Sequence record: KY684082
From: Shigella phage SFN6B
Length of the DNA: 43,036 bases
Direction: 5' to 3' (one strand)
Part shown: one piece after another, positions 1 to 20,199 of the stretch
Layout of the letters: each line of letters begins with the position of its first letter
How positions within the stretch are numbered: position 1 is the first letter of the stretch
Notes under the pieces: model-generated
What the model was told of the DNA's origin: nothing
Database searches by the model: none
The model's input: only the letters and a program-made list of their open reading frames with translations
Made by a program: the position numbers and the translations under genes

Positions 1-14
1 CTCCCCCCCCCCCT
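1..14. repeat. Terminal homopolymer tract CTCCCCCCCCCCCC, also present at the right window end; putative terminal-repeat or assembly junction
   Basis: The window starts ct+c(11)+tg and ends cccct+c(11); the shared ~13-nt string sits at both extremities. Confidence 0.5.
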
Positions 15-245
15 GTAGTTGGGGGGCTTTTCCTTTTGTAGGTTAGTATTTATAAGCACTATTCCAGGTGCATATATGAAGTTATCTGCAAGTGGGTACA
101 AGAGAAGCGCCTGGAACATCACAAGGACTTCTCCCCTGCGCAGGTGTATACCTGAACTCGAAATTTGTTAGACTCACGCGAGGCCCTCCCTCACCCTCAA
201 CGCGCCCAATTGCCCCCATAGGGGGTGTCTAGCGTATAAATGAGG

Positions 246-256
246 GGGGGGGGGCC
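246..256. repeat. Poly-G tract (11 G) followed by GGCCGTCTAG-type short direct repeats
   Basis: Read directly: gagggggggggggccgtctagacgtctagatggccagctgtgggccgtctaggg. Confidence 0.6.
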
Positions 257-390
257 GTCTAGACGTCTAGATGGCCAGCTGTGGGCCGTCTAGGGCGGAC
301 CAGGAGGGCCGTAGAAGCTCGCTGCGCGGCCTAATGGCTATTGCTAGTGCTATCCTATGCCTATCGCTATAAGCTCCTTGTAGGGCCGCT

Positions 391-433
391 GGGAAGCTCT
401 GGGAGGCACTAGGGAGGCACTAGGGAGGCACTA
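391..433. repeat. Tandem repeat, 11-bp unit GGGAGGCACTA x3 plus one degenerate copy
   Basis: Read directly: gggaagctct gggaggcacta gggaggcacta gggaggcacta. Confidence 0.85.
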
Positions 434-482
434 AGTGGGCCGTGGGGACGCGCTCCGTCTTGCTTATTTTGTGCGCCTATTG

Positions 483-545
483 CGGGCTTCCATTGTGGGC
501 TTCCAGTGCCCGCATTGTGGGGCCATAGTGGGGGCCATAGTGGGC
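483..545. repeat. Cluster of short direct repeats (GGGCTTCCA x2, CATTGTGGG x2, GGCCATAGTGG x2)
   Basis: Read directly from the sequence; overlaps the probably spurious ORF 435..671. Confidence 0.75.
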
Positions 546-561
546 CGCCCAGTGCGCCGTG

Positions 562-590
562 GTGCTATCGCTAGTGCTATCGCTAGTGCT
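562..590. repeat. Tandem repeat, 12-bp unit GTGCTATCGCTA x2.4
   Basis: Read directly: gtgctatcgcta gtgctatcgcta gtgct; related GTGCTA(T/C)CCCTAG copies near 664-680 and 961-990. Confidence 0.8.
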
Positions 591-717
591 TTACATTGTG
601 CCGATTATATGCTACTCTGCGCGCTCCCCACTGAGGCGCACTTCCACTACCCACCACACGCCGTCACCTAGTGCTATCCCTTCACCCTTACTTTCATTCG
701 AAAGCTAATAAGAAATG

Positions 718-734
718 ATGTTACAGGAGTAGGA
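718..734 (+). promoter_or_regulatory. Candidate phage-RNAP promoter, copy 1 of exact 17-mer ATGTTACAGGAGTAGGA (left non-coding end)
   Basis: Exact 17-mer shared with 20183..20199 and 32788..32804; ends in ...GAGTA|GGAG, resembling the -1/+1 region of T7-family promoters. Confidence 0.4.
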
Positions 735-890
735 GGGTTTTAGGGCACTACATACATACTACTTACTACTACTCACTAGTATCCCCTAGTAATGCCCTAT
801 ATTACGACCGTAGGGAGTAAGCATTACCTACACAGTAACTGCATTGCTCCGTGTCCTTTCACTTCGTACGGACACTACGCACTGCTTTAT

Positions 891-940
891 GTAGTATTAG
901 ATAGTGTTAGGTAGTATTGGTTAGTATTGGTTAGTGGTGG
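891..940. repeat. Degenerate tandem repeat, ~10-bp unit (GTAGTATTAG / GGTTAGTATT) x5
   Basis: Read directly: gtagtattag atagtgttag gtagtattgg ttagtattgg ttagtggtgg. Confidence 0.75.
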
Positions 941-1201
941 CGAGCAGTGGCTACAGCTAGTAGCTGCATAGTGCTACCCCTAGTGCTATCCCTAGAATAG
1001 AAGCATTGGCTAAGTATTTGCCCCGCTTACCCCTTTTGCTCTCAGTGATAAAAGTTTAAAAAAAAGTGCTTGCTTCTTTTGGTTAGTTAGCGCTATAGTT
1101 CAATCACCGGGAGGCACTGAGGCGCTGAACGGGGTAGAGTCGGGAGACTCCACCGGATTAAAGCTAGATAGTGTGAAGGGTTAGATACTCGATAAAAAGA
1201 G

Positions 1202-1230
1202 TTGACACCGCGAAGAACATAGGCTAGATT
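1202..1230 (+). promoter_or_regulatory. Sigma70-like early promoter (TTGACA - 17 bp - TAGATT)
   Basis: Perfect -35 hexamer TTGACA, 17-bp spacer, -10 TAGATT (4/6); lies in the non-coding leader upstream of the first ORFs. Weaker candidates near 1070-1099 (TTGCTT-18-TATAGT) and 1274-1302. Confidence 0.5.
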
Positions 1231-1575
1231 GAATCCCGAAGTAAGCAGTTAGGTAGTACACAGAAACAAACGCTTGACAAGTTCAGATTCACCTAGTAAC
1301 TTAGATAGCGAACAACGTAGTAAGCTGATTTGCGGGGAGGCCCAGTACCTTGACTGGTACGATGACGACTGAGCCTATACAATCAGTGTAGTAAAGAAGT
1401 AACGTCAAGAGCTGAGACGACAAACGGCTGGGGCGCTGAGGCGCTGCCCCTTAAAAGAATAGCGTCGAGACCTGAGCCACAGGTTCCACGGTTGTGCAGT
1501 GGGTAACAAGGTGAAAGATTAGCGTCCAGCTAGATACTGCTAGGGCGTTAATCTTTGACTTTGATGGAGGACACA

Positions 1576-1791
1576 ATGAAATATCGTGAGAAGTTAGCCC
1601 AACAATTCGCCGGACTTGAGAAGTTATCTGGTCCGGAATTGAGAAAACGCCGGGACGCGTTGAATCGTGCCGGGTATATGCGGATGAAACAATCTGCTAC
1701 ATTCAGCACGAACGTACGCGGTAAGACCAAAACAAGGGGAAGTAGCAAGGCCCCGCAAGGCTGGTACACTGCCGGGCAGTTCGGACGCTAA
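1576..1791 (+). CDS. Hypothetical early protein (basic, ~71 aa)
   Basis: ORF track 1555..1791; in-frame ATG at 1576 with GGAGGA a few nt upstream; first ORF after the non-coding leader. Confidence 0.45.
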   Translation: MKYREKLAQQFAGLEKLSGPELRKRRDALNRAGYMRMKQSATFSTNVRGKTKTRGSSKAPQGWYTAGQFGR

Positions 1792-1797
1792 TTACAG

Positions 1798-1828
1798 CCT
1801 ATAGCATCCTACGGGGTGCTATGTGAAG
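1798..1828 (+). promoter_or_regulatory. Conserved inverted-repeat element, copy 1 (CCTATAGCATCC-tacg-GGGTGCTATGTGAAG)
   Basis: 9-bp stem with 4-nt loop; same motif family at 2646..2675 and 9606..9637; ~39 bp upstream of the gene starting at 1867. Confidence 0.5.
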
Positions 1829-1866
1829 TAATTCGATAAGTAAACAACCAATCAAAGAGGTGTATC

Positions 1867-2451
1867 ATGACTAATATGACTAATGCAACCAAAAAAGTAT
1901 TCAAATTAACCGCCGCCGGCAATATCCGTAAAGCACTGCGCGATGTAGTAGAAGCCAAGCGTAATATCACTATCAGCGCTCTGTTCCACGGCCTGATTAG
2001 TAGCAACGTTTCTTGGGCGACGGATATGCAGCGCAGTGATGCCGCTGACTTTGATATGGTGCTGCGTACACTGCTGCCCATCAAGTTCAACAAGGAATCT
2101 GGCAAGTACGAGTTCCACGCTAAAAAGTGCTATGCGTCGGCTGAGAAGTTGGGTATTGAGCTGGATACTATGCGTCTGGACTATAAACAAGCTGACAAGC
2201 AAGGCCGTGAAGAGATTGTTGCCAGCTTCTACAGCGCTTGTATGGCCCTGTACAACGCTGAAGCGGATAAGGTGAAGAATGATGCCTTAGATGCCGATGC
2301 CGTGCGTCTGCAAGCTCTGGGGCGCGTTAAAAACGCCATCAAGAAAGCTAAGGAAACTGGTGTAAGCGATTCCGATCTGGTGAGTATGCTCATCAGTCAG
2401 GGTGTTGATGTGCGTGCTGTACTGGATGCAACTTTGAAGGTGGCGGCATGA
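1867..2451 (+). CDS. Hypothetical early protein (194 aa)
   Basis: ORF track; ATG preceded by AAAGAGG; no recognisable catalytic motif. Confidence 0.7.
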   Translation: MTNMTNATKKVFKLTAAGNIRKALRDVVEAKRNITISALFHGLISSNVSWATDMQRSDAADFDMVLRTLLPIKFNKESGKYEFHAKKCYASAEKLGIELDTMRLDYKQADKQGREEIVASFYSACMALYNAEADKVKNDALDADAVRLQALGRVKNAIKKAKETGVSDSDLVSMLISQGVDVRAVLDATLKVAA

Positions 2452-2525
2452 GCATGGAACTTGTAGGACTCATTCTAGTGATTGCGCTACTGGTCATAGT
2501 AATAGCAGAGTGCAGACGCTTATGA
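2448..2525 (+). CDS. Putative 25-aa hydrophobic mini-protein (MSMELVGLILVIALLVIVIAECRRL)
   Basis: Not in ORF track (too short); ATG overlaps the upstream stop in an ATGA arrangement; almost entirely a single TM-like helix. Confidence 0.3.
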   Translation: MSMELVGLILVIALLVIVIAECRRL

Positions 2526-2645
2526 TTATCAAGTGCTGGGCCTTATGCCCAGCGGCCAACGATACCGACGCCTTTGACGTGCCAACCCGGGGGCGCCATA
2601 ACAAGTGGTGCTACGAAGGTTTAGGGGAGTACGTATAGTGTCAAG

Positions 2646-2675
2646 CCTATAGCGCCTTAGTGGGCGCTATGTGAA
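2646..2675 (+). promoter_or_regulatory. Conserved inverted-repeat element, copy 2 (CCTATAGCGCC-ttagtg-GGCGCTATGTGAA)
   Basis: Perfect 8-bp stem ATAGCGCC/GGCGCTAT; ~25 bp upstream of the ATG at 2700. Confidence 0.5.
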
Positions 2676-2699
2676 TGCCACTAATAAGTGAGGTTTCAA

Positions 2700-2921
2700 A
2701 TGAAAGCAAAGATAATCCATCCGGGGCACGTACTCTGGCCCGTGTGGTGCAACCAAGTGCACCCAGAGTATAATTACACTGTGATGATATTCTCTGACCT
2801 AGATACTGATCAGGAATTCCCTTTAGACCTCGTTGATACTTATACCGAAACGGCGGCGCGCACTCTGCTGGACGCCGTGAATCTAGGTGTTATTACCGAC
2901 TGGAAGCAACTTTATGGCTAG
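2700..2921 (+). CDS. Hypothetical early protein (73 aa)
   Basis: ORF track 2688..2921; ATG at 2700 has GAGG upstream. Confidence 0.5.
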   Translation: MKAKIIHPGHVLWPVWCNQVHPEYNYTVMIFSDLDTDQEFPLDLVDTYTETAARTLLDAVNLGVITDWKQLYG

Positions 2922-3102
2922 TAAGTACGGGAAGAATCCTGAAACGCTGCTGATGCGTAGGCAGCAACCAACGATCGAGGGACTGGCGCGGGAGTACAGC
3001 GCGAAGGCAGCACTGCGTCAGCACTATGAGAAACAAGCGAAGCGCCTGGGTATGACCCTGCGCGGTTACTGTCAACGTTTTAATGTACGAGGTGTAGTAT
3101 GA
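2914..3102 (+). CDS. Hypothetical early protein (62 aa)
   Basis: ORF track 2887..3102 trimmed to the first ATG after the upstream gene (MASKYGKN...). Confidence 0.45.
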   Translation: MASKYGKNPETLLMRRQQPTIEGLAREYSAKAALRQHYEKQAKRLGMTLRGYCQRFNVRGVV

Positions 3103-3296
3103 ATGAACTAGTTAAGTATGATTTATACAGACGCCGGAATGGGTTACTGTACCGGGTGTCACTGCATGGCGCACTGTACGGGCCCGCTGAGTTTTACGCC
3201 ACCGGTTGTTGGGTACAATCACACCTAACAATTTTTGGTGTAATAACAGGTAGTGCGAGCACGCTAGTGGCCCGCAACGTAGTATTCAAGGATTAA
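3099..3296 (+). CDS. Hypothetical early protein (65 aa)
   Basis: ORF track; ATGA overlap with the upstream gene. Confidence 0.45.
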   Translation: MNELVKYDLYRRRNGLLYRVSLHGALYGPAEFYATGCWVQSHLTIFGVITGSASTLVARNVVFKD

Positions 3297-3298
3297 AT

Positions 3299-3643
3299 AT
3301 GCTCACAGTAGACGAAACAGCGCTACTGTGTTGGCGCTTGCTAGAGACGCAAGGCAAGTGCGGCTGCAGTTGGGAAACATTCAAAGAGGTCCCTAATGAA
3401 CTCAAGCGAATCGTACCGGTCGAGCGTAGGCCCCTCCGAGTTCGTAAGCAGGATTCTACGGTGGTGCTCACCGCATACCGGGAGTATACAGAATCTGCCG
3501 CGCGGCAGTTGCAAGAGCACCTTGCATTCAATGTGGTTGCAGCGCTACGGCAGTATGGATATAGGGGAGCTTTTACGCGATTTAAAGCCGCAGTGCGAGC
3601 CTATTACAAGCAGCAACAACTCTCTGCGTGGTATGCACGCTGA
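3299..3643 (+). CDS. Hypothetical early protein (114 aa)
   Basis: ORF track; AAGGA Shine-Dalgarno upstream. Confidence 0.55.
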   Translation: MLTVDETALLCWRLLETQGKCGCSWETFKEVPNELKRIVPVERRPLRVRKQDSTVVLTAYREYTESAARQLQEHLAFNVVAALRQYGYRGAFTRFKAAVRAYYKQQQLSAWYAR

Positions 3644-3689
3644 ACTTTTAACGTATGATGAGATACTAGTAACACCGGAGACAAAGAAA

Positions 3690-5405
3690 ATGCAAGAGAC
3701 TAACAAAGTAAACGTAGATGCAAACGTACCTGCAAATGTACCTGCCTACGAGGGTTGGACCATCAAATTTCCAGAAGGGGCCAACGCTCTTCCGCTGAAG
3801 AAACAGATGTACTCTTCCGGGGATTACTGGTGCCAACTTCCCTACCTATCAACTCGAGGCCATGCGCGCGTGCAAAGTAACAAAACCCGTGCGCTTTTGA
3901 ATGGCATTTATATGTGGTCAAAGGTGCTGCCGGGATATATTGTAGCACTTGGCAACTTTACAGCTGCAGGAGAGGAGTTGAGTGTATATACTGGGCCGCT
4001 GGGAGCAGTTGATATTAGTGACACTCTCCTGCATAAGCTCCTTGACCGTGCAAGTACCTGCGACCGGGCATTCGGTTTATACAGCAGAACCTTCTATGAT
4101 GGCCCTGACGTAGTTACAGAGCGCGTAGTAGAGGCGGTGCAATACTTCACTGGATACAAGGTGCACAAACAGGCTATAGAGTTGTTCGAAGAGATTATGC
4201 TAGCACCTACGTACTCCCTCCGGGCCAAATACACTCGCGGCGCGTACAGTGAGCGTGATGGAGATTACTGGGCAGCAACCTTGCTTATGCAGTTGCACGG
4301 GTTCGTGGTGTCTAGGTTTGCAATCCCGCTGGGTTTTGGATTCCGAAACGGTGAGCCTGTAGTAATGCTGGGGCAGCCGCGACTACACAAAGATTATGCT
4401 GCAATTACCGAGTATCGCTGCGTGGAGATGCGCGTGGGTAAATGGCTTGCTAACTACTACGGTAGTGGGGTAGACTTCCGGGAATGTATTGAAGACCTCA
4501 AAGCTATGAATGTAGACCCAACCACGTATCTTTGTAAGACCGAAGAGGAGTGGTACAACGCATACGAGAAAGGCCCGCGTAGCTGCATGACCGGATACAA
4601 CTTCGAGTATAGCCCGGTGCGTGTATACGCTACGACGAGTCACGGCTTGCCGGATAATGGGCTGCGCTTGTTCATCCAGTATACCGGTGAACTTTTTGGC
4701 GACGACTTTAAAGTGCAAGCCCGCGCTATCGTTAACATCGAAACCAACGAATACGTCCGTGCATACGGAGATGCTGCGGACGCCATTCTACGTGCTAATG
4801 GGTATGAGCACGATACAGACTGCTTAGATGGCGCACTACTGGCACGCATTCCGCACCCAGAGAATGAAGGTGCCGTGCTTATGCCGTACTTAGACGGGAA
4901 TCAAGATGGCGTGGATGAAGAGGGGAATAATGCGTTCGTTATCTGCGACTGCTATGACTATGAAGCACAGGATGCTGACGGGTACATTTGGATTGATGAC
5001 GATCGCTGCGCTTGTACAGAGTGTGGGGAACGTTTCGACGAGGAGGACATGTACGTATCTTGTGACGGTGGTTATGTATGCTCGCACTGTATCGGTGATA
5101 CTTACGTACAGGTAGTGGGCCGCAGCGTAGTGTACCCATCATGGGATTGCTCATGGTCTGACTACCACGACTCTTGGGTACTTGACCAGGACGTAGCAGA
5201 TTGTGCTGTAGAGGGTACAGTGCATGATGAAGAGCCAATGGTGTGCGTACAAGGGTACAATGTTCTGAGTGTGCATGCCGAAGAGCACCCAGTGCACGGT
5301 ATGATTCTCACGGAGTATGCTGCGTCCGTATTGGATGAACCCTACCTCGGTAATGAAGAAGCCGAAGAAGACAAGGAAGCTAAAGCAGAACAGGAGGCAG
5401 CTTAA
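3690..5405 (+). CDS. Large early protein of unknown function (~571 aa) with C-terminal Cys-rich zinc-ribbon-like cluster and acidic tail
   Basis: ORF track 3396..5405; start moved to ATG 3690 (GGAG upstream; avoids overlap with 3299..3643); alternative ATG at 3633. Cys cluster CDCYDY...CACTECGERF...CDGGYVCSHC; C-terminus EEAEEDKEAKAEQEAA. Confidence 0.65.
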   Translation: MQETNKVNVDANVPANVPAYEGWTIKFPEGANALPLKKQMYSSGDYWCQLPYLSTRGHARVQSNKTRALLNGIYMWSKVLPGYIVALGNFTAAGEELSVYTGPLGAVDISDTLLHKLLDRASTCDRAFGLYSRTFYDGPDVVTERVVEAVQYFTGYKVHKQAIELFEEIMLAPTYSLRAKYTRGAYSERDGDYWAATLLMQLHGFVVSRFAIPLGFGFRNGEPVVMLGQPRLHKDYAAITEYRCVEMRVGKWLANYYGSGVDFRECIEDLKAMNVDPTTYLCKTEEEWYNAYEKGPRSCMTGYNFEYSPVRVYATTSHGLPDNGLRLFIQYTGELFGDDFKVQARAIVNIETNEYVRAYGDAADAILRANGYEHDTDCLDGALLARIPHPENEGAVLMPYLDGNQDGVDEEGNNAFVICDCYDYEAQDADGYIWIDDDRCACTECGERFDEEDMYVSCDGGYVCSHCIGDTYVQVVGRSVVYPSWDCSWSDYHDSWVLDQDVADCAVEGTVHDEEPMVCVQGYNVLSVHAEEHPVHGMILTEYAASVLDEPYLGNEEAEEDKEAKAEQEAA

Positions 5406-6439
5406 TGTATGGTGTTGACCTTAAACTACTGACAAAGATACTAACAACGCACCGACCTAGCTGGGGCAGTACCAAATGGTTTGAGCCGCTACTTAGTAGC
5501 GCTCTTGCTGGTGCAGAACACTACGTTAGGGACGCTCATGGTAACTACTTTGTGCTTATTGGTAACTCTGAACAGAGTGACGTAGCATTTACATCACACC
5601 TCGACACAGTGGCCCGGCCTGGTAGTGCTGCGCCAGACATTGCAATCACTAACAAGGGCATAATGTTCCTGCGGAATCCACAGGTGGCGGATTGTCTAGG
5701 TGCAGACTGCGGTGCTGGTATCTACCTGATGCTAGAGATGATTAGGCACGGTGTGCATGGGCGCTACTGCTTCTTCGTGGATGAGGAGGTAGGTTGTGAG
5801 GGCAGCAGAGCATCAGCCAAAGATGATACAGGGTTCTGGACTGGGGTCAAGGCGATGATTAGCTTCGACCGCCGGGGTGATGGTATCATTACGCATCAAC
5901 GGTACATGCGCTGCTGCTCTGATACGTTCGCAAAGGAACTAGCGGCCCGACTAGGACGAACGGAGGCGCACTTACAGAAGGGGGTATACACGGACTCCGC
6001 TGAGTTCGTAAGTATTATCCCAGAGTGCACTAACGTAGGCGTAGGGTACATGCACGAACATACACCAGACGAGGTGCTGGACTTAAACATCCTTGGTCAG
6101 GTACTGGAGCGTGTACTGCAAGCAGGCACATTCAAGCACCTACCGATTGAACGGGATCCAAAGGTAGTGGAACCGGATGCGTGGTTATCTGCCTCTGCGT
6201 ATCCTTTTGATATGTCACTAGATGTTCCCTATGCGGAAGACCCGCATTTACTTGCAGCATTCAAGGAGGTGTCACAGCTTTCTAAGCAGCAACTGATTAG
6301 TTGGGTATTGGATAACCCAGCAAGGGCGGCGGAGTACATCATGGTGTTCTCCGATTATGGCTTCAAAGAGGAACTGATTGAACTTGGCACCCGAGTTGTA
6401 GAGGACTGGGGTGGATACGAGAATATTGTGGAGGGTTGA
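5405..6439 (+). CDS. Putative MH-clan (M20/M28/M42-like) zinc metallopeptidase
   Basis: Ordered motifs matching the co-catalytic zinc peptidase pattern: SHLDTV (H-x-D), LGADCGAG (bridging Asp), FFVDEEVGCEGS (Glu-Glu), later Asp and His (MHEHT). Motif-level reading only. Confidence 0.5.
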   Translation: MYGVDLKLLTKILTTHRPSWGSTKWFEPLLSSALAGAEHYVRDAHGNYFVLIGNSEQSDVAFTSHLDTVARPGSAAPDIAITNKGIMFLRNPQVADCLGADCGAGIYLMLEMIRHGVHGRYCFFVDEEVGCEGSRASAKDDTGFWTGVKAMISFDRRGDGIITHQRYMRCCSDTFAKELAARLGRTEAHLQKGVYTDSAEFVSIIPECTNVGVGYMHEHTPDEVLDLNILGQVLERVLQAGTFKHLPIERDPKVVEPDAWLSASAYPFDMSLDVPYAEDPHLLAAFKEVSQLSKQQLISWVLDNPARAAEYIMVFSDYGFKEELIELGTRVVEDWGGYENIVEG

Positions 6440-6441
6440 TT

Positions 6442-6912
6442 ATGTCTAAGTTTAAAGTTGGTGATAAAGTTGTCCGCAAATCACCCGACGACAGTTCATC
6501 GTTTAAGAAGCACCAAGGGGATTTTGATTACTACACAGTTACAGATATGTCCCCAAGCGGCCACTGGCTGCAGTTGGACAACTTTACTATCGACGATGAC
6601 TATTACCCGTGGTGTGCAACTAACTTCGAGCTGTACCAAGAGCTGGACGACGAGCTGCCGCCTGCACCAACCTCAGTACTCTATTACCATAGCACTGCGG
6701 ATGCATATAACTTGCAGCATATGATCGTGCAACCACATTGGGAGTTAGAGGGACATCTCAGTATCGCTATCGTGAAGAGCGGTAAAAAGTTCGATCCCCT
6801 GGCTTACGGTGATGCATTATCCCTCAACCTGGAACCCGATGCAGCCTTGCAGTTGGCACATGACCTATGCCGCATGGCTATGGATATTAAACGTAAGGAG
6901 AAAGCACAGTGA
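6442..6912 (+). CDS. Hypothetical protein (156 aa)
   Basis: ORF track 6436..6912; ATG at 6442 preceded by GGAGGG. Confidence 0.6.
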   Translation: MSKFKVGDKVVRKSPDDSSSFKKHQGDFDYYTVTDMSPSGHWLQLDNFTIDDDYYPWCATNFELYQELDDELPPAPTSVLYYHSTADAYNLQHMIVQPHWELEGHLSIAIVKSGKKFDPLAYGDALSLNLEPDAALQLAHDLCRMAMDIKRKEKAQ

Positions 6913-7370
6913 AGTATGAGTACAACCCGGATACCGGGGAGATACTGCGCTATGGGAAACCGGTAGGGTCTAAGGACTCCTCCGGGTACCTGGTGGTGTG
7001 GGTGGATGGTAAGTGCTGGCGTGCCCACCGTCTGGCCTACCACCTACAAGGCTTGCCGGTACCTAGACAAGTGGACCACATTAATGGAATCAAAGATGAT
7101 AACCGGTGGGTCAACTTACGTGCAGCCACTAACTCTCAGAACCAGTACAACCGCAAAGGTTGTGCTGCATCAGGAAACCTAAAGGGCGCATACTACAACA
7201 AGGCTATGCGCAACTGGTACTCCCTAATTCGTGTAGGTGGTAAGCGTAAATACTTAGGCTCTTACCGTTCGGAAGCTGAGGCCCACGCAGCCTATGTAAA
7301 GGCCTCTCAACAAATGCACGAGGGGTTTGATGTATGGACGAGCCGTGGCTTAGAGCCTGCAAGCGCCTAG
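6909..7370 (+). CDS. HNH homing endonuclease (HNH plus AP2-like DNA-binding region), paralog 1
   Basis: VDHINGIKDDNRWVNLRAATNSQN HNH core; GTG start with AAGGAG upstream; paralogs at 13318, 24732 and 35743. Confidence 0.8.
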   Translation: MKYEYNPDTGEILRYGKPVGSKDSSGYLVVWVDGKCWRAHRLAYHLQGLPVPRQVDHINGIKDDNRWVNLRAATNSQNQYNRKGCAASGNLKGAYYNKAMRNWYSLIRVGGKRKYLGSYRSEAEAHAAYVKASQQMHEGFDVWTSRGLEPASA

Positions 7371-8122
7371 CGATAGGGCAATCGAGTAGGTTCCGCTGCT
7401 GCGGCAAGACTCCTGCAGCGGTAATCTACAATAAACCTGACACCTGGAGCATGTACTGCTTTAGGTGTCACAAGACTGTTAATGAGCGCAAGCAGTACCA
7501 GCGCATACAGTTACAGGAAGAGCCGAGGGTGCAGCCCTCTGCACCTGCAGATGCAATTTGCATTAGCCAAGCGCCTGCGGAAACACAGAATTTTATTTAC
7601 GGATTCCTTGCTACAAAAGGAATCATGCCTGAAATGGTGGGGGATGCAGAATGGAGCAAAGAGAAACAGCGGATACTATTCCGTGCCGGGGGTGCTGTAC
7701 TGGGCCGCGCTGTTCATGCCCGACAGCAACCGAAGTGGGTAATGTACGGCCAGCCAATAGCTTTCGCTGTCGCGGCACCTGCCGTAGCACCGGCTGTAGC
7801 TGCGGCCGCACCTCTAAAGGTCGTGCTCACCGAGGACTTACTCTCAGCCCGGAAGATACAGCACGCAGTTACGAGCTACAGTGCGTTGAACGTGCAGGCT
7901 ATAGCTATGCTGGGTACACGCTTGCCCACGCAGCTAAGGGCCTGGCTGATTCAGAATCGCCCGGAAGTGATTCTGATGCTGGATAATGACCCGGCAGGGC
8001 ATGCTGGGGTAGTAGCAGCACGCAAAGCACTGCGCCCGTTCATGCAGTGCCGAGAACATTACTTCGCTGCGGATCCTAAGGACGCAGAAATCAAAGAGAT
8101 ACTGGAGGCGCTTAATGCTTAA
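7334..8122 (+). CDS. DNA primase (zinc-binding domain plus TOPRIM)
   Basis: CCGKT...CFRCHK zinc-finger pattern; TOPRIM-like VVLTEDLLSARK and VILMLDNDPAGHAG; sits immediately upstream of the helicase. Confidence 0.8.
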   Translation: MDEPWLRACKRLAIGQSSRFRCCGKTPAAVIYNKPDTWSMYCFRCHKTVNERKQYQRIQLQEEPRVQPSAPADAICISQAPAETQNFIYGFLATKGIMPEMVGDAEWSKEKQRILFRAGGAVLGRAVHARQQPKWVMYGQPIAFAVAAPAVAPAVAAAAPLKVVLTEDLLSARKIQHAVTSYSALNVQAIAMLGTRLPTQLRAWLIQNRPEVILMLDNDPAGHAGVVAARKALRPFMQCREHYFAADPKDAEIKEILEALNA

Positions 8123-8321
8123 GAACAAATACAGGGTAGTGCAGGACAACTACGCAGGATTTGAGGCGCAGGTTAAGTTCTGGTGGTTTCCGGTGCGCTG
8201 GTGGCAACTGTGCAGATCTGGGCGTGGGGTGGGTACTAACACGTACCCCAATCTTCATGAGGCAGAGAGCCTGTGTCGAGTACATGCCAGAAAGAGTACC
8301 ATCTACAAAGTGGAGGTTTAA
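8115..8321 (+). CDS. Hypothetical small protein (68 aa) between primase and helicase
   Basis: ORF track; exactly fills the gap between the two genes. Confidence 0.4.
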   Translation: MLKNKYRVVQDNYAGFEAQVKFWWFPVRWWQLCRSGRGVGTNTYPNLHEAESLCRVHARKSTIYKVEV

Positions 8322-9602
8322 TTGGACCTAATAGTAGTCAAGGCAATGTGCACACAGAAGGTCTGGAACCGACTGCGAGAGCAGATACCCAAGTCTATGC
8401 TAGCGCCAGATACATCAAACCTACTGGACTGGGTGGGGCTGTACTGGAACACGTACCCGGAGCACCAGGAGGTGCAGTGGGACGCGATGCAAAGCATGCT
8501 CAATCTCCGGGCCGGACACTTGTCCCGTGAAGAGCGGGTGATTATGGACGAGCTTATGCGGGGAGTACAAGCCGTGCCACAGGATTCTGTGGTGGGGATT
8601 GTTCAGACCCTGAATGAGTTAGCATACAGTGGGGAGGTTGCTGCACTTACACAGCGCTACCAAGACGGTGAGGAGGTTGATTACCTGCTGGAGATGAAGC
8701 ACCTCCAGCGCAAGTACGGTGATGGTGCTGCTGTTCATGATTCGCTACTGGAATGGGAGAGCGGAAGTGTTGATGAGATACTTGCCGCGACTGATGAAAG
8801 TGGCGGTCTTAAGCTGGGTGTGTTTGAGCAACTGTCGAGTAGCATTCGTGGGCTTCGCGGAGGTGATTGCATCGCCGTTGCTGCCCCTGTTGATTCTGGT
8901 AAAACTAGTCTACTCGCTGCTATTGCCGTGGACTTTGCTAAGCAGATGCAGCAACAACCCGAAGTATATGGGGACCGTCCGATTCTGTGGTTGGTTAACG
9001 AAGGCCCGGCGACGCGTACAGTGCCGAGGGTATATCAAGCGGCGCTGCATTGGACTTTGGCTGAGATTAAGGACAGGCACAGTAGGCAAGAGTTTGTGCC
9101 AGCCTATCTGGAGAAAGTAGGCAGGGCTGACCGCATCCGTATCAAGGCAGCGCACTCCCTTACGATGGCCCAAATCTCTACACTCATGGAGGAGATGCGT
9201 CCGGCGGTAATCATCATAGATATGGTGGCTAACATCCGTGGTGGTACTATGGAGAGCGAACACCAGAACCTAGAGGCGAAGTGGCAGGAGCTGCGTATCC
9301 TGGGGTGTGAGAATGACTGTGCTGTTATCGGTACTATGCAGCTTTCGCTTGAAGGTTACAACCTGCTGTTCCCGCCGCTCACGGCGATGAAGCAGAGTAA
9401 GATTGGTGTACAAGGTGCTTTGGATTTGGCGATTATGATGGGGTGCTTAGACAGGAACGAGCAGCCGCACATGCAAAACATTCGTGGTATCAGTACACCC
9501 AAGAACAAGATGGCGCTATCAGGCAAGGAATCGCTACTGCAATTCGAGGTAGCATTCGACCCAGGTAGATGCCGCTTTAACGAAGGGCAGATTAACAAGT
9601 GA
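8322..9602 (+). CDS. DnaB-like replicative DNA helicase
   Basis: Walker A AAPVDSGKTSLL and Walker B AVIIIDMV; TTG start 5 nt after GGAGG. Confidence 0.85.
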   Translation: MDLIVVKAMCTQKVWNRLREQIPKSMLAPDTSNLLDWVGLYWNTYPEHQEVQWDAMQSMLNLRAGHLSREERVIMDELMRGVQAVPQDSVVGIVQTLNELAYSGEVAALTQRYQDGEEVDYLLEMKHLQRKYGDGAAVHDSLLEWESGSVDEILAATDESGGLKLGVFEQLSSSIRGLRGGDCIAVAAPVDSGKTSLLAAIAVDFAKQMQQQPEVYGDRPILWLVNEGPATRTVPRVYQAALHWTLAEIKDRHSRQEFVPAYLEKVGRADRIRIKAAHSLTMAQISTLMEEMRPAVIIIDMVANIRGGTMESEHQNLEAKWQELRILGCENDCAVIGTMQLSLEGYNLLFPPLTAMKQSKIGVQGALDLAIMMGCLDRNEQPHMQNIRGISTPKNKMALSGKESLLQFEVAFDPGRCRFNEGQINK

Positions 9603-9605
9603 CTT

Positions 9606-9637
9606 CCCTAGCGCCTTCCTAGAGGGCGCTATGTAGG
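9606..9637 (+). promoter_or_regulatory. Conserved inverted-repeat element, copy 3 (CCCTAGCGCC-ttcctagag-GGCGCTATGTAGG)
   Basis: Same motif family as 1798 and 2646; ~27 bp upstream of the DNA polymerase ATG. Confidence 0.5.
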
Positions 9638-9663
9638 TACATGGTATGGGAGGTATAAGTAGT

Positions 9664-12027: not shown

Positions 12028-12245
12028 CTATTAAACCGGGTAGTATTGTGGAGATACTAGGACTTGGGCCGGAACCCTTAGAGCCTAGACATCGTGATTA
12101 CTTTGCACCAGGCACACAGCATCGTGTGATATCTTATGATCCTGAACTCTGGGAGGTGGAATTAATCAATCCAGACAACAACTCAGAGAAGCCTGGGGAT
12201 GGTATTACCTTCTTCTCTGGGGAGTACAAACTTATAGCGGAGTGA
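12024..12245 (+). CDS. Hypothetical protein (73 aa)
   Basis: ORF track; ATGA overlap with the DNA polymerase stop; AGGAG upstream. Confidence 0.55.
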   Translation: MTIKPGSIVEILGLGPEPLEPRHRDYFAPGTQHRVISYDPELWEVELINPDNNSEKPGDGITFFSGEYKLIAE

Positions 12246-12407
12246 TGATAGGTGTACCCTCGGGTGGTGTAGGGGGTTAGGGTAACATGAGAATTAGCCA
12301 GGGTCAAGTAGATAATTAAATAAAATTATTTGTTGACTCTGGCTTGATTCTGTGATTTACCGAGAATTAATGTGATACGAGTAGGAACAACATAAGAGAG
12401 GCAAACC

Positions 12408-13388
12408 TTGGCTAAAATTAGTTTGATTAACCTGTTCAGCAAAGACCAGCACGAGGAAGTGCTGAGTTATCATAAAGACAACACGGCGGCAGCTGCAGCC
12501 TACACAGCTATGACGGATGGGAAATACCCAGTGTCCCGCCAGCTTGTACGCTACTGGCGCAGCATCTTTATGGATAATAATGGTAGCAAGGCAAAGGCTA
12601 ATAATGCTTTGATGCAAGCCCGCAAACTAATCCAGCCCTCCCCAACGGATGACATTGGGGATACGTTTGTACCGGAAACCTGTCGACGTATTCTCGTTAT
12701 CGGGGACCTGCACGAACCGTACACACACCCGGACGCGTATGACTTTTTATGCACTGTGAGGGATGAGTACTGCCCAGACATTGTGGTGCAGATAGGCGAT
12801 GAGACAGATGGACACGCTATTAGCTTCCATGATAGCAGTCCGGAGTTAGACAGCGCTGGAGTGGAATTAGAGAAGGCCAAGCTCGGTCTGGAGAGGCTTC
12901 ATGCTCTGTTCCCTAACATGCTCCTGTGCGACTCTAACCATGGCTCCCTTGTATACCGTAGAGCCAAAGCTCATGGACTCCCTGTACAGTTCATTAAGAA
13001 GTATCGGGACATCCTGTTCCCAGAGCACGGAGCGCCGGGGTGGAGTTGGGGTGATGCTTGGGATTTAAATACTCCGATGGGTACTGTGCGATTTCAACAT
13101 CAAGTATCTGGGGACCTTCTGCTCAACGCAGCTCATGAACGTAAGTCCATGGTAATTGGACACTTCCATGGGAAGTTAGATATACAGTATGCGGCGAGCA
13201 GCACTGCTTTGTACTTTGGTGCGCACTGCGGTTGTTTAATCGACAATAAGAGTCTGGCATTTGCTTATGGTAAGTTGTCAAGAAGCAAGCCGATTCTAGG
13301 GTGTATGGTGATTACAGATGGATGCCCACAAATCATCCCCATGCTATTGGACGACACCGGCCGGTGGTGTTCTAGAGTACAACCCTGA
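12408..13388 (+). CDS. Calcineurin-like metallophosphoesterase (putative nuclease or phosphatase)
   Basis: MPP signature blocks GDLHEP, GDETDGH, DSNHG, GHFHG; TTG start after GAGAGG. Confidence 0.7.
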   Translation: MAKISLINLFSKDQHEEVLSYHKDNTAAAAAYTAMTDGKYPVSRQLVRYWRSIFMDNNGSKAKANNALMQARKLIQPSPTDDIGDTFVPETCRRILVIGDLHEPYTHPDAYDFLCTVRDEYCPDIVVQIGDETDGHAISFHDSSPELDSAGVELEKAKLGLERLHALFPNMLLCDSNHGSLVYRRAKAHGLPVQFIKKYRDILFPEHGAPGWSWGDAWDLNTPMGTVRFQHQVSGDLLLNAAHERKSMVIGHFHGKLDIQYAASSTALYFGAHCGCLIDNKSLAFAYGKLSRSKPILGCMVITDGCPQIIPMLLDDTGRWCSRVQP

Positions 13389-13827: not shown

Positions 13828-13896
13828 ATGTTCTTAAACCGTTAAGCCCTGCATCTGCACATAAATTTTATTTAAACTAAACGAGGACATAATTAT

Positions 13897-14721: not shown

Positions 14722-14744
14722 GCAACCATACTACTAACTAATAC

Positions 14745-14761
14745 GGCCCCGCCCAGGGGCC
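14745..14761 (+). promoter_or_regulatory. GC-rich hairpin (GGCCCC-gccca-GGGGCC), possible terminator or processing site
   Basis: 6-bp perfect stem directly downstream of the stop at 14721; no clean U-tract. Confidence 0.35.
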
Positions 14762-14778
14762 TTAGAGAGAGGGTTTAG

Positions 14779-17706: not shown

Positions 17707-20175
17707 ATGATTAGCGCCCTGAATACGGTTGTAGTACCCGAGGAAGCACTGGTGGAACGCCAGTTGGAGCTTGAAGAGACTTACAAGATTCGCGGCATTG
17801 AACGTGCTCGCAAATTGATTACCGACGCTCTACAAAACGGCGGGATTATGAACCTGCCTATGACTCAGCGCATGCTAACCTCTGCGTACGACGTGGCCTC
17901 TGCAGCCATTGAGGAAATGCGTAACACCAAAGCCCCGGGTATTGGTGGAAAGTACCGCCGATTCCTACGCTTAGTCCCCTTGGATGTCCTAACTACTCTG
18001 AGCCTGTGCACAATGTTTGAGGCGTTCAGTGTTGCTCCTGGTGAGTCCGCCAGTCGCCGCCAAACAGCTCAGGCAGTGATGTCCGCTCTGGGTAGGAATG
18101 TACAGTCAGAGCTGCTGGCCCTACAACTACGTAATGTTGCCCCAGCGTATATGGACCGGGTATATGAATACCTCACTGAGCGCCGTACTAAGTCGCCTAC
18201 GCACATTCTGCGTACGCTCCGCGCCAGTGCTGAGAACGTGCACTATGGGCATGAGCCTTGGACCAACGCTCAGAATATTTCTGTGGGACGTCTGCTGTGT
18301 TCCGCAGTGTTTGAGACAGGGCTGTTCCAGTGGAAGACTGGTAGCGGGAACTTGAGTATGCTCTATCCCGCAGATAATGTTATGGAAGCATTTCAGCAGT
18401 TAGTGGAATCTGCTGACACTGTAACTATGAAGCCTCCGATGCTGGTGCCTCCGGTGCCACATACTACACTGTGGGATGGTGGCTACCTCACCCCAATAGA
18501 TAACCGTGGGACGTACCACAACTCACACATTGACCGCGCCAGACTGCGTGAAGTAGCGGAAGCATTTAAGTCTGCGGACGGTATCAAGAAGGCACTTAAT
18601 AAGGCGCAGGAAACTCCTTATCGCATTAATAAGCGAATACTGGAACTGGTACAAGAAGCACGGGCCTTAGGTATTGGTGTAGGTATGCCGCGCTCAGTGC
18701 CAGAGCCGAAACCTGAGTGGTACTTAGATGGTGTACCAAAAGAGAATTACACCGAGGAGGAACTCGACCGCTTCGGAGAGTGGAAGACGCGTATGTCCTT
18801 ATGGTACAGCGCAGACCGTAAGCGTGTGTCACAATTACGTAGCCTATTGACCACGCTAGAGATGGCAGAGGAATTCAAAGATGAGAAAGCCCTGTACTTC
18901 CCAACCTGTGTGGATTGGCGGTACCGGCTGTACTTCAAGTCCTCACTGCACCCCCAAGGTTCTGATTTGCAGAAGGCACTTCTTGAATTCGGACGAGGTA
19001 AACCTCTGGGAGAGAGAGGGTTATTCTGGCTTAAAGTGCACGTCGCTACCTGCTTTGGTTATGACAAAACCCTATTCGAAGACCGTGCAGCTTGGGTTGA
19101 TGCAAACTTTGCAGAGATTGAGCAGCTCGCGGATTCCCCTTTTGATTGCCCTGCTTTTACCTCCGCTGACAGCCCTTGGTGCTTCCTGGCAGCCGCTATT
19201 GACTTGGTTAATGCTGTACGTTCTGGATGCCCAGAAGAGTACATTAGCCGAATCCCGGTTGCTATGGATGCTACAAACTCAGGTGGGCAGCACCTCTCAG
19301 CGCTCCTGAGAGACCCTGTAGGCGGACGCCTGACGAACCTGTACTGGGAGGGTAACGACAAGAAAGCGGATCTGTATATGGACGTGAAGCGCCGTACGGA
19401 CGAGAAGGTGATACTGGACCTGGACAAAGAGGATTTCGTTATCCAGAGCACGTACTGGAGAGAGAACGAAATCACTCGAAGCATGACCAAGCGTCCTAGC
19501 ATGACCTACTTCTACAGCGCCACGGTGCGCAGCTGCAGCGACTATATCTTTGCCGGGGCCTGTGAAGAGGGGTATGAAGGAACGGATACGCACAGTCTTT
19601 GGAACCTTTCCTGCTACCTGGCTCCCAGAATGCGCAGTGCTATTGAGGAAGCTAACCCGGCAGCAGCAGCAGCTATGGGGTATCTGCAGAACCTCGCTAG
19701 GCGTGTACCTGCTAGTCAGCATCTGCAGTGGAAGACTCCGCTAGGTGGGCTGGTGATGAACCGGTACTCTCAGCGAGAGGAGGTACGTGTACGTATTGAC
19801 TGCATGAACCTGTCCGCCGTGCTGGTACACAACCGTGACTTTAAGACCTGTAATAAGCGCAAGGCCGCCTCTGGTATTGCCCCGAACTTTGTACATAGTC
19901 TGGATAGTACGCACTTGATGATGGTACTCTGTGCGGCAGAAGGTCTGGATATTGTCCCGATTCACGATTCGATGGCGACTCACGCGGCTGATGTAGATGC
20001 CCTGCACCGACATATCCGTGAACAGTTTGTGAAGCTGTACGAGGAGCACGATCTTCTGGGGGATATTACCAGGGCAGCTGCCGAAGCAGGGGCAGACCTG
20101 ACGGACCTGGATATGCCTGCGGTTGGTACTTTGGACATTCGGCAAGTGCTAGAATCTCCGTTCTTCTTTTCATAA
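17707..20175 (+). CDS. Single-subunit DNA-directed RNA polymerase (T7-like)
   Basis: 822 aa; motifs VAMDATNSGGQH, RSMTKRPSMTYFYSA, APNFVHSLDSTH, PIHDSMATHA parallel T7 RNAP motifs A, B and C; GGAG upstream. Confidence 0.95.
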   Translation: MISALNTVVVPEEALVERQLELEETYKIRGIERARKLITDALQNGGIMNLPMTQRMLTSAYDVASAAIEEMRNTKAPGIGGKYRRFLRLVPLDVLTTLSLCTMFEAFSVAPGESASRRQTAQAVMSALGRNVQSELLALQLRNVAPAYMDRVYEYLTERRTKSPTHILRTLRASAENVHYGHEPWTNAQNISVGRLLCSAVFETGLFQWKTGSGNLSMLYPADNVMEAFQQLVESADTVTMKPPMLVPPVPHTTLWDGGYLTPIDNRGTYHNSHIDRARLREVAEAFKSADGIKKALNKAQETPYRINKRILELVQEARALGIGVGMPRSVPEPKPEWYLDGVPKENYTEEELDRFGEWKTRMSLWYSADRKRVSQLRSLLTTLEMAEEFKDEKALYFPTCVDWRYRLYFKSSLHPQGSDLQKALLEFGRGKPLGERGLFWLKVHVATCFGYDKTLFEDRAAWVDANFAEIEQLADSPFDCPAFTSADSPWCFLAAAIDLVNAVRSGCPEEYISRIPVAMDATNSGGQHLSALLRDPVGGRLTNLYWEGNDKKADLYMDVKRRTDEKVILDLDKEDFVIQSTYWRENEITRSMTKRPSMTYFYSATVRSCSDYIFAGACEEGYEGTDTHSLWNLSCYLAPRMRSAIEEANPAAAAAMGYLQNLARRVPASQHLQWKTPLGGLVMNRYSQREEVRVRIDCMNLSAVLVHNRDFKTCNKRKAASGIAPNFVHSLDSTHLMMVLCAAEGLDIVPIHDSMATHAADVDALHRHIREQFVKLYEEHDLLGDITRAAAEAGADLTDLDMPAVGTLDIRQVLESPFFFS

Positions 20176-20182
20176 AAATTTA

Positions 20183-20199
20183 ATGTTACAGGAGTAGGA
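20183..20199 (+). promoter_or_regulatory. Candidate phage-RNAP promoter, copy 2 of exact 17-mer ATGTTACAGGAGTAGGA
   Basis: Sits between the RNAP stop and the first downstream gene, abutting its ATG. Confidence 0.45.

What the first reader, a model, noticed from the sequence alone, without database searches (positions are those of the whole stretch)
718..734. Left-end copy of the promoter-like 17-mer in the non-coding terminal region
A copy of the putative phage promoter sits in the repeat-rich non-coding left end with no ORF immediately downstream. This is analogous to the T7 phiOL promoter near the left end, which is implicated in replication and concatemer processing rather than mRNA production.
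Basis: inference. Interest (0 to 1): 0.5.

Follow-up and report, generated by a model that had tools for sequence, protein, structure and literature searches.

The report
Left-end promoter for phage RNA polymerase
This is the left-end copy of the promoter read by the phage's own RNA polymerase, already shown to work in the test tube for the close relative Klebsiella phage KP34; what it does in an infected cell is still untested.

Summary
The window is a KP34-like phage genome (genus Drulisvirus). The 17-mer at 718-734 is real: three exact copies, all on the + strand, against 0.08 expected by chance. Shifted by two bases, 716-731 (TGATGTTACAGGAGTA) is letter for letter the "S2" strong promoter of KP34 RNA polymerase. 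The copies at 20181 and 32786 are "S1" (Lu et al. 2019; in vitro transcription, start on the G after the 16-mer, here G732).

New here:
- The left copy sits at one fixed place, about 277 nt inside the terminal repeat and 420-496 nt upstream of the host-type early promoters, in every relative examined. Its 95-nt module occurs once in each of 242 phage records.
- Promoter position -7 is A or C in step with a four-residue swap in the polymerase specificity loop. The left copy follows the other copies in 20 of 20 genomes.

The promoter call is therefore strongly supported. The T7 phiOL analogy holds for position only. Nothing shows that it serves replication "rather than mRNA": it points the same way as all genes, with no terminator-like site before them, and there is no right-end partner. 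The identity is already known; the in vivo role is open. Interest is modest.

The parts
716..731 (+). Left-end promoter for the phage single-subunit RNA polymerase (KP34 'S2' type, TGATGTTACAGGAGTA; positions -16 to -1)
   Evidence: Identical to KP34 nt 475-490, tested in vitro. Exact or near-exact at the syntenic place in all relatives examined.
732..765 (+). Predicted transcription start (G732) and conserved initially transcribed sequence GGAGGGTTTTAGGGCACTA...
   Evidence: The start is placed by analogy with 5'-RACE on the KP34 post-polymerase copy, where the first base after the 16-mer is +1. Conservation here is 0.91-0.98 and the stretch is nearly invariant in 34 distinct left ends.
687..707 (+). 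Conserved upstream box CTTACTTTCATTCGAAAGCTA (-45 to -25), specific to the left copy; function unknown
   Evidence: Nearly invariant in 33-34 distinct left ends and absent upstream of the other two copies. Conservation 0.90-0.95.
747..790 (+). Short direct repeats (ACTACTTACT / CTCACTAGGTA type) whose copy number differs between genomes
841..885 (+). Stem-loop in the leader (+110 to +154), supported by covariation
   Evidence: MFE -15.1 kcal/mol, z -4.70. Nine pairs, 98.1% of cells paired, one pair with four pair types, covariation score 0.229 against 0.072 in shuffles, 0 of 500 shuffles as high.
189..455 (.). Predicted direct terminal repeat (a single collapsed copy in this assembly); the inner edge is 277 nt upstream of G732
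   Evidence: Alignment to both copies of the annotated repeats of KP34 and KpV475
1202..1230 (+). Host sigma-70-type early promoter P1
   Evidence: 10 of 12 consensus match. Same sequence as the host promoters listed by Eriksson et al. 2015.
1273..1301 (+). Host sigma-70-type early promoter P2 (TTGACAAGTTCAGATTCACCTAGTAACTT)
   Evidence: Matches the second host promoter listed for NTUH-K2044-K1-1 and F19; sequence read
1576..1791 (+). First conserved gene, 844 nt downstream of the predicted start
   Evidence: PHROG 6352, E 3e-45; annotated as the first CDS in relatives
17707..20175 (+). Phage single-subunit RNA polymerase gene. Codons 703-706 (nt 19813-19824, SAVL) are the specificity-loop block that co-varies with promoter position -7.
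   Evidence: E 1e-69 to T7 RNA polymerase; residues 703-706 align to T7 Q758-I761. These are the only fixed differences between A-type and C-type genomes. The same dimorphism is tabulated by Eriksson et al..
20181..20196 (+). S1 promoter copy directly after the polymerase gene (the main late promoter)
32786..32801 (+). S1 promoter copy inside the internal-virion-protein ORF

Best explanation
It is a working promoter for the phage's own T7-type RNA polymerase, the Drulisvirus counterpart of KP34 'S2'. Once the polymerase has been made (its gene lies at 17.7-20.2 kb and is first reached by host polymerase from the early promoters at about 1.2 kb), it binds 716-731. The specificity loop reads the -7 region, and transcription starts at G732 and runs rightward. 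The transcript crosses an 844-nt untranslated leader that is lower in G+C and carries a conserved stem-loop at 841-885. Nothing terminator-like intervenes, so it continues through the early genes, the replication genes and the polymerase gene itself. This gives the phage polymerase fast, host-independent access to the left 20 kb and a positive feedback loop on its own gene. Shown elsewhere: the 16-mer is a promoter in vitro. Shown here: fixed position, co-evolution with the polymerase and the other copies, orientation, and absence of a terminator. Inferred: use in vivo, read-through into genes, and the biological purpose. A second use of the same transcripts, as primers for DNA synthesis, is not excluded.
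For: - Exact identity to the KP34 S2 16-mer. In vitro it promoted transcription as efficiently as S1, with the start on the base after the 16-mer.
- Three exact copies on the + strand against 0.08 expected.
- A left copy lies 420-496 nt upstream of the sigma-70 early promoter in every relative examined. The 95-nt module occurs once in each of 242 phage records, and 256 records match the polymerase region.
- Position -7 is A in all copies or C in all copies of a genome: 20 concordant and 0 discordant.
- That split coincides with the only fixed differences in the polymerase, residues 703-706 (SAVL versus T-I-L/M-R). They align to T7 Q758-I761 in the specificity loop.
- Outside the loop, A-type and C-type polymerases are no more different from each other than A-type ones are among themselves, 0.960 against 0.960. 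Each type of downstream leader sequence occurs with both dialects. The match is therefore kept across different sequence backgrounds.
- It has the same orientation as all genes. No convincing + strand terminator-like site lies from 732 to 20000.
- A terminator-like hairpin at 9-26 closes the late transcription unit just before the repeat. Transcription into the early region therefore restarts at a dedicated promoter instead of arriving by read-through.
- The sister phage LIMElight has sense copies of its own promoter motif inside its early and middle region, so transcription of these genes by the phage polymerase appears normal in this group.
- The left-end phage promoter of LUZ19 is active in vivo.
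Against: - There are no in vivo data for any Drulisvirus. No transcriptome was found in the searchable library.
- S2 was tested only as a 16-mer on synthetic templates with a foreign downstream sequence.
- An 844-nt leader, an invariant box at -45 to -25 and a covarying hairpin are more than a plain mRNA promoter needs.
- In LUZ19 and LIMElight the left-end copy points the other way, at a similar distance from the repeat. That argues the conserved role may not be early-gene mRNA.
- Some genomes carry extra changes in the left copy only: -10 T to A in 13 left ends, and -6 G to C in Minorna and EC22.5-2. These may weaken it.
- No host-polymerase inhibitor could be identified that would make such a promoter necessary.
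- The A/C switch may be one evolutionary event, so 20 of 20 overstates the number of independent observations.
Confidence: 0.55

Rival explanations
1. Replication promoter in the manner of the T7 origins. The polymerase starts at G732, and the short RNA made in the lower-G+C, repeat-bearing region downstream is taken over by the phage DNA polymerase as a primer (or transcription opens the duplex). The site would then be a left-end origin, and any mRNA would be incidental.
For: - Same layout as T7 phiOL: repeat, short repeats, rightward phage promoter, host promoters.
- Every T7 origin contains a T7-polymerase promoter, and secondary origins work when the primary ones are deleted.
- G+C falls from 0.57 in the 300 nt upstream to 0.45 in the 300 nt downstream. 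The same step is seen in all 16 left ends compared.
- This is one of the longest low-G+C stretches of the genome.
- Conserved flanks and a hairpin beyond promoter needs.
- Position relative to the repeat is kept in T7, LIMElight and Drulisvirus while orientation is not.
Against: - No origin has been mapped in any KP34-like phage.
- Cumulative GC skew rises monotonically and tells nothing.
- The lowest-G+C intergenic region is elsewhere, at 11981-12533.
- The primase recognition sites of this phage are unknown, so the T7 origin signature cannot be tested.
- According to the papers read, phiOL itself is 'used only weakly', and its cited function is genome entry.
Confidence: 0.25
2. End-linked landmark. 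Polymerase bound or stalled about 250-280 nt inside the repeat helps concatemer processing or packaging, or insulates the early region. The effect would not depend on which way the promoter points.
For: - Similar distance from the repeat's inner edge in this window (277 nt), KP34 (275), KpV475 (278), LIMElight (about 250, opposite strand) and T7 (245, taking the 160-bp repeat from established knowledge).
- LUZ19 P001 is also at the left end, on the opposite strand.
- Highly conserved non-coding blocks flank it, at 426-475 and 556-645.
Against: - A rightward promoter downstream of the repeat cannot transcribe across its own junction.
- There is no right-end partner.
- The T7 class II pause motif ATCTGTT is absent from the + strand.
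- The distance agreement rests on a handful of lineages.
Confidence: 0.08
3. An inherited copy with little or no present function, conserved only because these genomes are close relatives.
For: The whole non-coding left end is fairly conserved, mostly 0.7-0.95. T7 phiOL is thought to be weakly used. Some left copies carry private substitutions.
Against: The left copy changed at -7 together with the other copies and the polymerase loop, in several different leader backgrounds. The module is among the best conserved islands, while neighbouring stretches fall to 0.3-0.6. It is present once in 242 records.
Confidence: 0.07
4. Not a promoter at all: a chance repeat, or a ribosome-binding-like AGGAG element.
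For: The motif contains AGGAG. At 20181 it lies just before an ATG at 20200.
Against: 0.08 copies are expected by chance. No start codon or conserved ORF follows the left copy. Promoter activity of this exact 16-mer has been shown biochemically.
Confidence: 0.02

Closest known systems
KP34 RNA polymerase strong promoter S2 (KP34 nt 475-490; Lu et al. 2019, PMC6834552)
   Same: Identical 16-mer. Same position relative to the terminal repeat (275 against 277 nt) and to the host early promoters. Same partners (S1 after the polymerase gene and S1 inside the internal-virion-protein gene). The cognate polymerase has the same specificity-loop allele (SAVL).
   Different: Nothing material: this is the orthologous site in another Drulisvirus. 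Neither site has been tested in vivo or on its natural downstream sequence.
T7 promoter phiOL (start at nt 405)
   Same: A rightward phage-polymerase promoter between the left terminal repeat and the host early promoters. It is a non-consensus variant of the phage promoter, and its transcripts head into the early region.
   Different: There is no sequence relation, because the polymerase specificity differs. T7 also has phiOR at the right end, and this genome does not. The T7 polymerase gene is early, so phiOL can serve genome entry; here the polymerase gene lies 17 kb downstream. S2 was as strong as S1 in vitro, whereas phiOL is regarded as weak.
LUZ19 (Phikmvvirus) phage-specific promoter P001 (Putzeys et al. 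2024, PMC10914365)
   Same: A left-end copy of the phage's own promoter, numbered before the host early promoters P002-P005. The overall promoter set is the same: a left-end copy, copies after the polymerase gene, and one in the structural region. It is conserved across its genus.
   Different: P001 is on the opposite strand. It makes antisense RNA running across the genome junction into the right-end genes, and was proposed to block read-through into early genes. That cannot apply to a sense promoter.
Pantoea phage LIMElight left-end copy of its promoter motif
   Same: A copy of the phage's own promoter motif about 250 nt inside the left terminal repeat. A terminator sits just before the right repeat, as here.
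   Different: Opposite orientation and a different motif (ATGATnnACGTTATAGAG). LIMElight also has three sense copies inside its early and middle region, which Drulisvirus lacks. This is a prediction only.
T7 primary origin (promoters phi1.1A and phi1.1B plus an A+T-rich region)
   Same: A phage promoter followed by DNA of lower G+C.
   Different: The T7 origin lies just after the polymerase gene, not at the end. No origin activity has been shown here.

Membership tests
KP34-type single-subunit RNA polymerase strong promoter | 16-nt sequence T(A/G)ATGTTACAGGAGTA | tested here: met
   716-731 = TGATGTTACAGGAGTA, exact (definition)
KP34-type single-subunit RNA polymerase strong promoter | G-start directly after the 16-mer | tested here: met
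   732-737 GGAGGG; KP34 transcripts start on the first base after the 16-mer
KP34-type single-subunit RNA polymerase strong promoter | Cognate polymerase with matching specificity loop encoded in the same genome | tested here: met
   Polymerase at 17707-20175 with the loop ...NLSAVLVHNRD, as in KP34
KP34-type single-subunit RNA polymerase strong promoter | Co-variation with the polymerase and the other promoter copies across relatives | tested here: met
   -7 A/C concordant in 20 of 20 genomes; the loop block 703-706 is the only fixed polymerase difference
KP34-type single-subunit RNA polymerase strong promoter | Initiation by the polymerase at this site | not testable with these tools
   Shown in vitro for the identical 16-mer on a synthetic template; not shown for the natural context or in vivo
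T7 phiOL-type left-end promoter | Phage-polymerase promoter between the left terminal repeat and the host early promoters, pointing right | tested here: met
   Predicted repeat 189-455, promoter 716-731 (+), host promoters 1202 and 1273; T7 layout
T7 phiOL-type left-end promoter | Non-consensus variant of the phage promoter | tested here: met
   Position 2 is G in all left copies seen, while the late copy is always TAAT; phiOL is described as non-canonical
T7 phiOL-type left-end promoter | Partner promoter near the right end (phiOR) | tested here: not met
   No further copy with up to 3 mismatches on either strand
T7 phiOL-type left-end promoter | Acts as a secondary replication origin or in genome entry | not testable with these tools
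   Only a drop in G+C downstream (0.57 to 0.45) is seen
T7 phiOL-type left-end promoter | Sequence homology to T7-group promoters | tested here: not met
   A different consensus; Lu et al. compare the promoter classes
Phikmvvirus P001-type antisense left-end promoter | Opposite orientation to the genes, transcribing across the genome junction | tested here: not met
   The left copy is on the + strand in all Drulisvirus genomes examined
Bacterial sigma-70 promoter | -35 and -10 hexamers with 16-18 nt spacing | tested here: not met
   The scan finds none at 680-740
Described non-coding RNA family (leader 732-1575) | Match to an Rfam covariance model | tested here: not met
   No match up to E = 1 in 1-3000

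The most novel reading that the evidence does not exclude
The promoter is the core of a conserved module of about 200 nt: the invariant box at -45 to -25, the promoter, the G-rich start and the covarying hairpin at +110 to +154. Its real job would be linked to the genome end, not to making messenger RNA. For example, it could launch DNA replication from the left end with a short primer RNA, or mark the end for processing. A copy of the phage's own promoter about 250-280 nt inside the terminal repeat, in either orientation, would then be a shared and unexplained design rule of T7-like, phiKMV-like, LIMElight-like and KP34-like phages.
Probability: 0.2. Interest if true: 0.55.

Novelty: already known. 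Interest (0 to 1): 0.3.

Why it matters
The identity of the element is settled and published for the type phage, so the finding itself is ordinary. Three points have some value.

1. None of the GenBank records I inspected marks this site as a promoter, and most list no feature under it, so it could be annotated across the genus (about 242 records carry the module).
2. The natural pairing of promoter position -7 (A or C) with a four-residue specificity-loop swap (SAVL against TI(L/M)R) is a ready-made pair of possibly orthogonal polymerase and promoter variants. KP34 polymerase is already used for RNA synthesis.
3. The purpose of left-end phage promoters (T7 phiOL, LUZ19 P001, this one) has never been pinned down. 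Drulisvirus has only three strong promoters and offers a simple system to test it.

Tried and rejected
- Rfam scan of 1-3000 at E up to 1: nothing.
- Folding the whole leader: 732-1000 gives z -1.38 and 1000-1300 gives z +0.13, so it is not a globally structured RNA. Only the local hairpin at 841-885 stands out.
- Small ORF at 792-914: not conserved.
- A second element upstream of each strong promoter. The core of the KP34 'weak promoter', ACTTTGGAC, occurs exactly twice in the window, 53 and 65 nt upstream of the two S1 copies. However, the first is polymerase C-terminal coding sequence and is missing where an extra gene is inserted, and the second is not conserved across the genus. Rejected as a general feature.
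- T7 class II pause or termination motif ATCTGTT: only two copies, both on the minus strand, fewer than expected by chance.
- Cumulative GC skew as an origin indicator: monotonic and uninformative.
- Search for a host-polymerase inhibitor among ten small early and middle proteins (PHROGs): nine matched only families of unknown function, and the tenth (17329-17562) matched nucleotide-kinase families.
- Literature search for in vivo transcript maps of KP34-like phages: none in the library.
- The first IMG/VR scan with the bare 16-mer returned mostly chance hits in unrelated contigs.

Full report
WHAT THE WINDOW IS

The window is a whole genome of a KP34-like podophage (Autographiviridae, Slopekvirinae, genus Drulisvirus). 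The polymerase region is 96-97% identical to Klebsiella phage Hope and Escherichia phage Minorna, and about 86% identical to KP34. The left end matches 251 records, almost all Klebsiella or Escherichia phages of this genus. All large ORFs are on the + strand. The single-subunit RNA polymerase gene lies at 17707-20175, at the end of the DNA-metabolism block. It matches T7 RNA polymerase at E 1e-69.

THE OBSERVATION

The 17-mer ATGTTACAGGAGTAGGA is at 718-734. It recurs exactly at 20183 and 32788, and with three mismatches at 12370, all on the + strand. That is four matches against 0.08 expected (repeat family D2).

No conserved ORF follows the left copy. The 40-codon ORF at 792-914 is disrupted in relatives and varies equally at all three codon positions. 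The first real gene starts at 1576. The region is full of short tandem repeats.

The window does not begin at the physical end. Aligned with the annotated terminal repeats of KP34 (1-216) and KpV475 (1-243), the repeat is predicted at about 189-455. Window 1-188 corresponds to the unique sequence in front of the right-hand repeat.

WHAT IT IS

A full-text search for the motif found one paper: Lu et al. 2019, on KP34 RNA polymerase. The authors define the strong promoter as T(A/G)ATGTTACAGGAGTA. KP34 has three copies: S2 (TGAT...) at 475-490, and S1 (TAAT...) at 22197-22212 and 33721-33736. 5'-RACE places the start on the base after the 16-mer. S1 and S2 worked equally well on synthetic templates, and the shared 14-nt core was much weaker.

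The window has exactly this set: S2 at 716-731, S1 at 20181-20196 and S1 at 32786-32801.

The hairpin motif that Eriksson et al. 2015 had proposed as the phage promoter gave no transcript in vitro.

COMPARATIVE EVIDENCE GATHERED HERE

1. Position. In 16 GenBank left ends and about 20 IMG/VR contigs, the left copy always lies 420-496 nt upstream of the host-type early promoter TTGACACCGCGAAG. The predicted start is 275-278 nt inside the repeat where the repeat is known or predicted. The 95-nt module 676-770 occurs once in each of 242 phage records (243 places in all) at 85% identity or more. None of the 30 listed rows shows it annotated as a promoter.

2. Conservation. It sits in one of the best conserved islands of the non-coding left end, 0.88-0.98 over 676-765, while neighbouring stretches fall to 0.3-0.6.

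3. Co-evolution.
   - The genus has two promoter dialects. Position 10 of the 16-mer (-7) is A (KP34, KpV475, Minorna, this window) or C (NER40 and many IMG/VR contigs).
   - In all 20 genomes where the left copy and at least one other copy are known, the left copy has the same base as the others.
   - The polymerases of 12 A-type and 10 C-type genomes differ consistently at only four consecutive residues, 703-706: SAVL against T-I-(L/M)-R.
   - These residues align with T7 Q758-I761 in the specificity loop. Eriksson et al. tabulated the same dimorphism without knowing the true promoter.
   - Outside the loop, A-type and C-type polymerases are as similar to each other (0.960) as A-type ones are among themselves.
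   - All four kinds of downstream leader sequence occur with both dialects.
   - The left copy therefore tracks the polymerase, not its own flanks. I take this as good evidence that it is kept as a polymerase target. The caveat is that the number of independent switches may be small.
   - No paper in the library contains the C-dialect sequence.

ANATOMY AROUND THE PROMOTER

- Upstream, a 21-nt box CTTACTTTCATTCGAAAGCTA (687-707, -45 to -25) is almost invariant and is found only at the left copy.
- Downstream, GGAGGGTTTTAGGGCACTA is conserved. It is followed by short repeats whose number varies between genomes.
- G+C drops from 0.57 in the 300 nt upstream to 0.45 in the 300 nt downstream, and the same step is seen in all 16 left ends compared.
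- At 841-885 a stem-loop folds far better than shuffled sequence (z -4.70). It is supported by covariation in 18 distinct sequences: 98.1% of cells paired, one pair with four pair types, covariation score 0.229 against 0.072, and 0 of 500 shuffles as high.
- Two other leader types have unrelated sequences at that place that also fold. A fourth type does not.
- The leader as a whole is not unusually structured and matches no Rfam family.
- No convincing + strand terminator-like site lies between 732 and 20000.
- A terminator-like hairpin at 9-26 follows the last gene, just ahead of the repeat.

HOW IT MOST LIKELY WORKS

What is shown or follows directly:
- The 16-mer is a promoter for this type of polymerase.
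- It faces the same way as all genes.
- Nothing terminator-like stands between it and the early, replication and polymerase genes.
- Late transcription appears to be closed off before the repeat, so transcription into the left 20 kb by the phage enzyme would have to start here.

Inference: once made, the polymerase uses this site to transcribe the early and middle genes, and its own gene, quickly and independently of the host enzyme. In LIMElight, three sense copies of that phage's own promoter motif lie inside its early and middle region. Transcription of these genes by the phage polymerase therefore seems normal in this group. I put about 0.9 on "functional polymerase promoter" and about 0.55 on this whole account.

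RIVAL ACCOUNTS AND THE phiOL ANALOGY

The layout does parallel T7: phiOL at 405, host promoters A1-A3 at 498-750, and gene 0.3 at 925. phiOL is likewise a non-canonical variant. Every T7 origin contains a T7 promoter, and secondary origins exist, so a primer or origin role is a fair rival (0.25).

The extra conserved features and the drop in G+C favour that rival. So does a comparison made here. LIMElight carries a perfect copy of its own promoter motif at 528-545 on the minus strand, about 250 nt inside its left repeat, where 0.00 are expected by chance. LUZ19 has an in vivo active antisense phage promoter at its left end. Position relative to the repeat is thus shared by several lineages while orientation is not.

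- Nothing indicates "rather than mRNA".
- This genome has no right-end copy.
- As I recall the T7 literature, concatemer processing involves phiOR and a pause site in the repeat, not phiOL.
- The papers I could read describe phiOL as weakly used and cite it for polymerase-driven genome entry. That cannot be the role here, because the polymerase gene lies 17 kb downstream.

NOVELTY

The identity is already known: it is the orthologue of a published, biochemically tested promoter. Three things appear to be new, but they are modest. First, the left copy is universal in the genus and sits at a fixed position. Second, the -7 base pairs with the specificity-loop allele. Third, the leader carries a covarying hairpin and LIMElight has an antisense left-end copy. 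The in vivo function remains open.

Noticed in passing
window 841-885 (+): Stem-loop in the untranslated leader, 110-154 nt after the predicted start. z is -4.70, and covariation supports it in 18 relatives (one pair shows CG, UA, AU and GC). Two other leader types have a different sequence at that place that also folds; one type has none. Only transcripts from the left-end promoter, or read-through across the repeat, would contain it.
   Followed up: yes
window 19813-19824 (polymerase codons 703-706), with 725, 20190 and 32795 (promoter position -7): A natural polymerase-promoter co-variation within the genus. Loop SAVL goes with A at -7, and T-I-(L/M)-R goes with C at -7. These are the only fixed polymerase differences between the two groups. 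The loop dimorphism was published, but its link to the promoter was not found in the literature searched.
   Followed up: yes
window 12368-12386 (+): A fourth, variant copy, TAATGTGATACGAGTAGGA, with differences at -10, -8 and -6. It is identical in KP34, KpV475, Minorna and NER40, and lies in the lowest-G+C intergenic region of the genome (11981-12533), after the DNA polymerase gene. It does not follow the A/C dialect and was not tested by Lu et al. It could be a weak promoter, an origin-linked site or neither.
   Followed up: partly
window 1796-1827 and 2644-2675 (+): Two copies of the hairpin motif AGCCTATAGC..GCTATGTGAA, which Eriksson et al. proposed as the phage promoter and Lu et al. 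found inactive in vitro. They lie between early genes and could be RNA processing sites (my guess, untested).
   Followed up: no
window 1-188 and 189-455: The assembly is circularly permuted with the terminal repeat collapsed. The repeat is predicted at 189-455. A G+C-rich hairpin followed by a T-run (9-26) lies after the last gene, just before the repeat. LIMElight has an annotated terminator at the same place.
   Followed up: partly
L226 (Pantoea phage LIMElight NC_019454) 528-545, minus strand: A perfect copy of LIMElight's own promoter motif (ATGATnnACGTTATAGAG), about 250 nt inside the left terminal repeat and pointing leftward. The record does not annotate it as a phage promoter. The annotated 'phage promoter' at 4898-4922 seems misplaced, since the motif is at 5002-5019.
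   Followed up: partly
window 20181-20202 (+): The main late promoter ends 3 nt before the ATG of the next gene (20200). Transcripts starting there would have a 3-nt leader, whereas read-through transcripts would see the promoter's AGGAG as a ribosome-binding site.
   Followed up: no
window 20128-20136 and 32721-32729 (+): ACTTTGGAC, the core of the KP34 'weak promoter', occurs exactly twice, 53 and 65 nt upstream of the two S1 copies. The first is polymerase C-terminal coding sequence, and the second is not conserved in most relatives, so the pairing may be fortuitous.
   Followed up: partly
window 556-645 and 426-475 (+): Two very highly conserved non-coding blocks (0.88-0.99): one between the repeat and the promoter, and one across the inner edge of the repeat. 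Their function is unknown; packaging or end-recognition signals are candidates.
   Followed up: no
window 687-707 (+): The invariant box CTTACTTTCATTCGAAAGCTA at -45 to -25 of the left promoter contains the palindrome TTCGAA and a 5-bp inverted repeat. It lies outside the reach of a T7-type promoter and might bind another factor.
   Followed up: partly
window 32786-32801, inside ORF 31479-35741: The third promoter copy lies within the coding sequence of the large internal virion protein and is conserved there across the genus, so those codons are doubly constrained.
   Followed up: no
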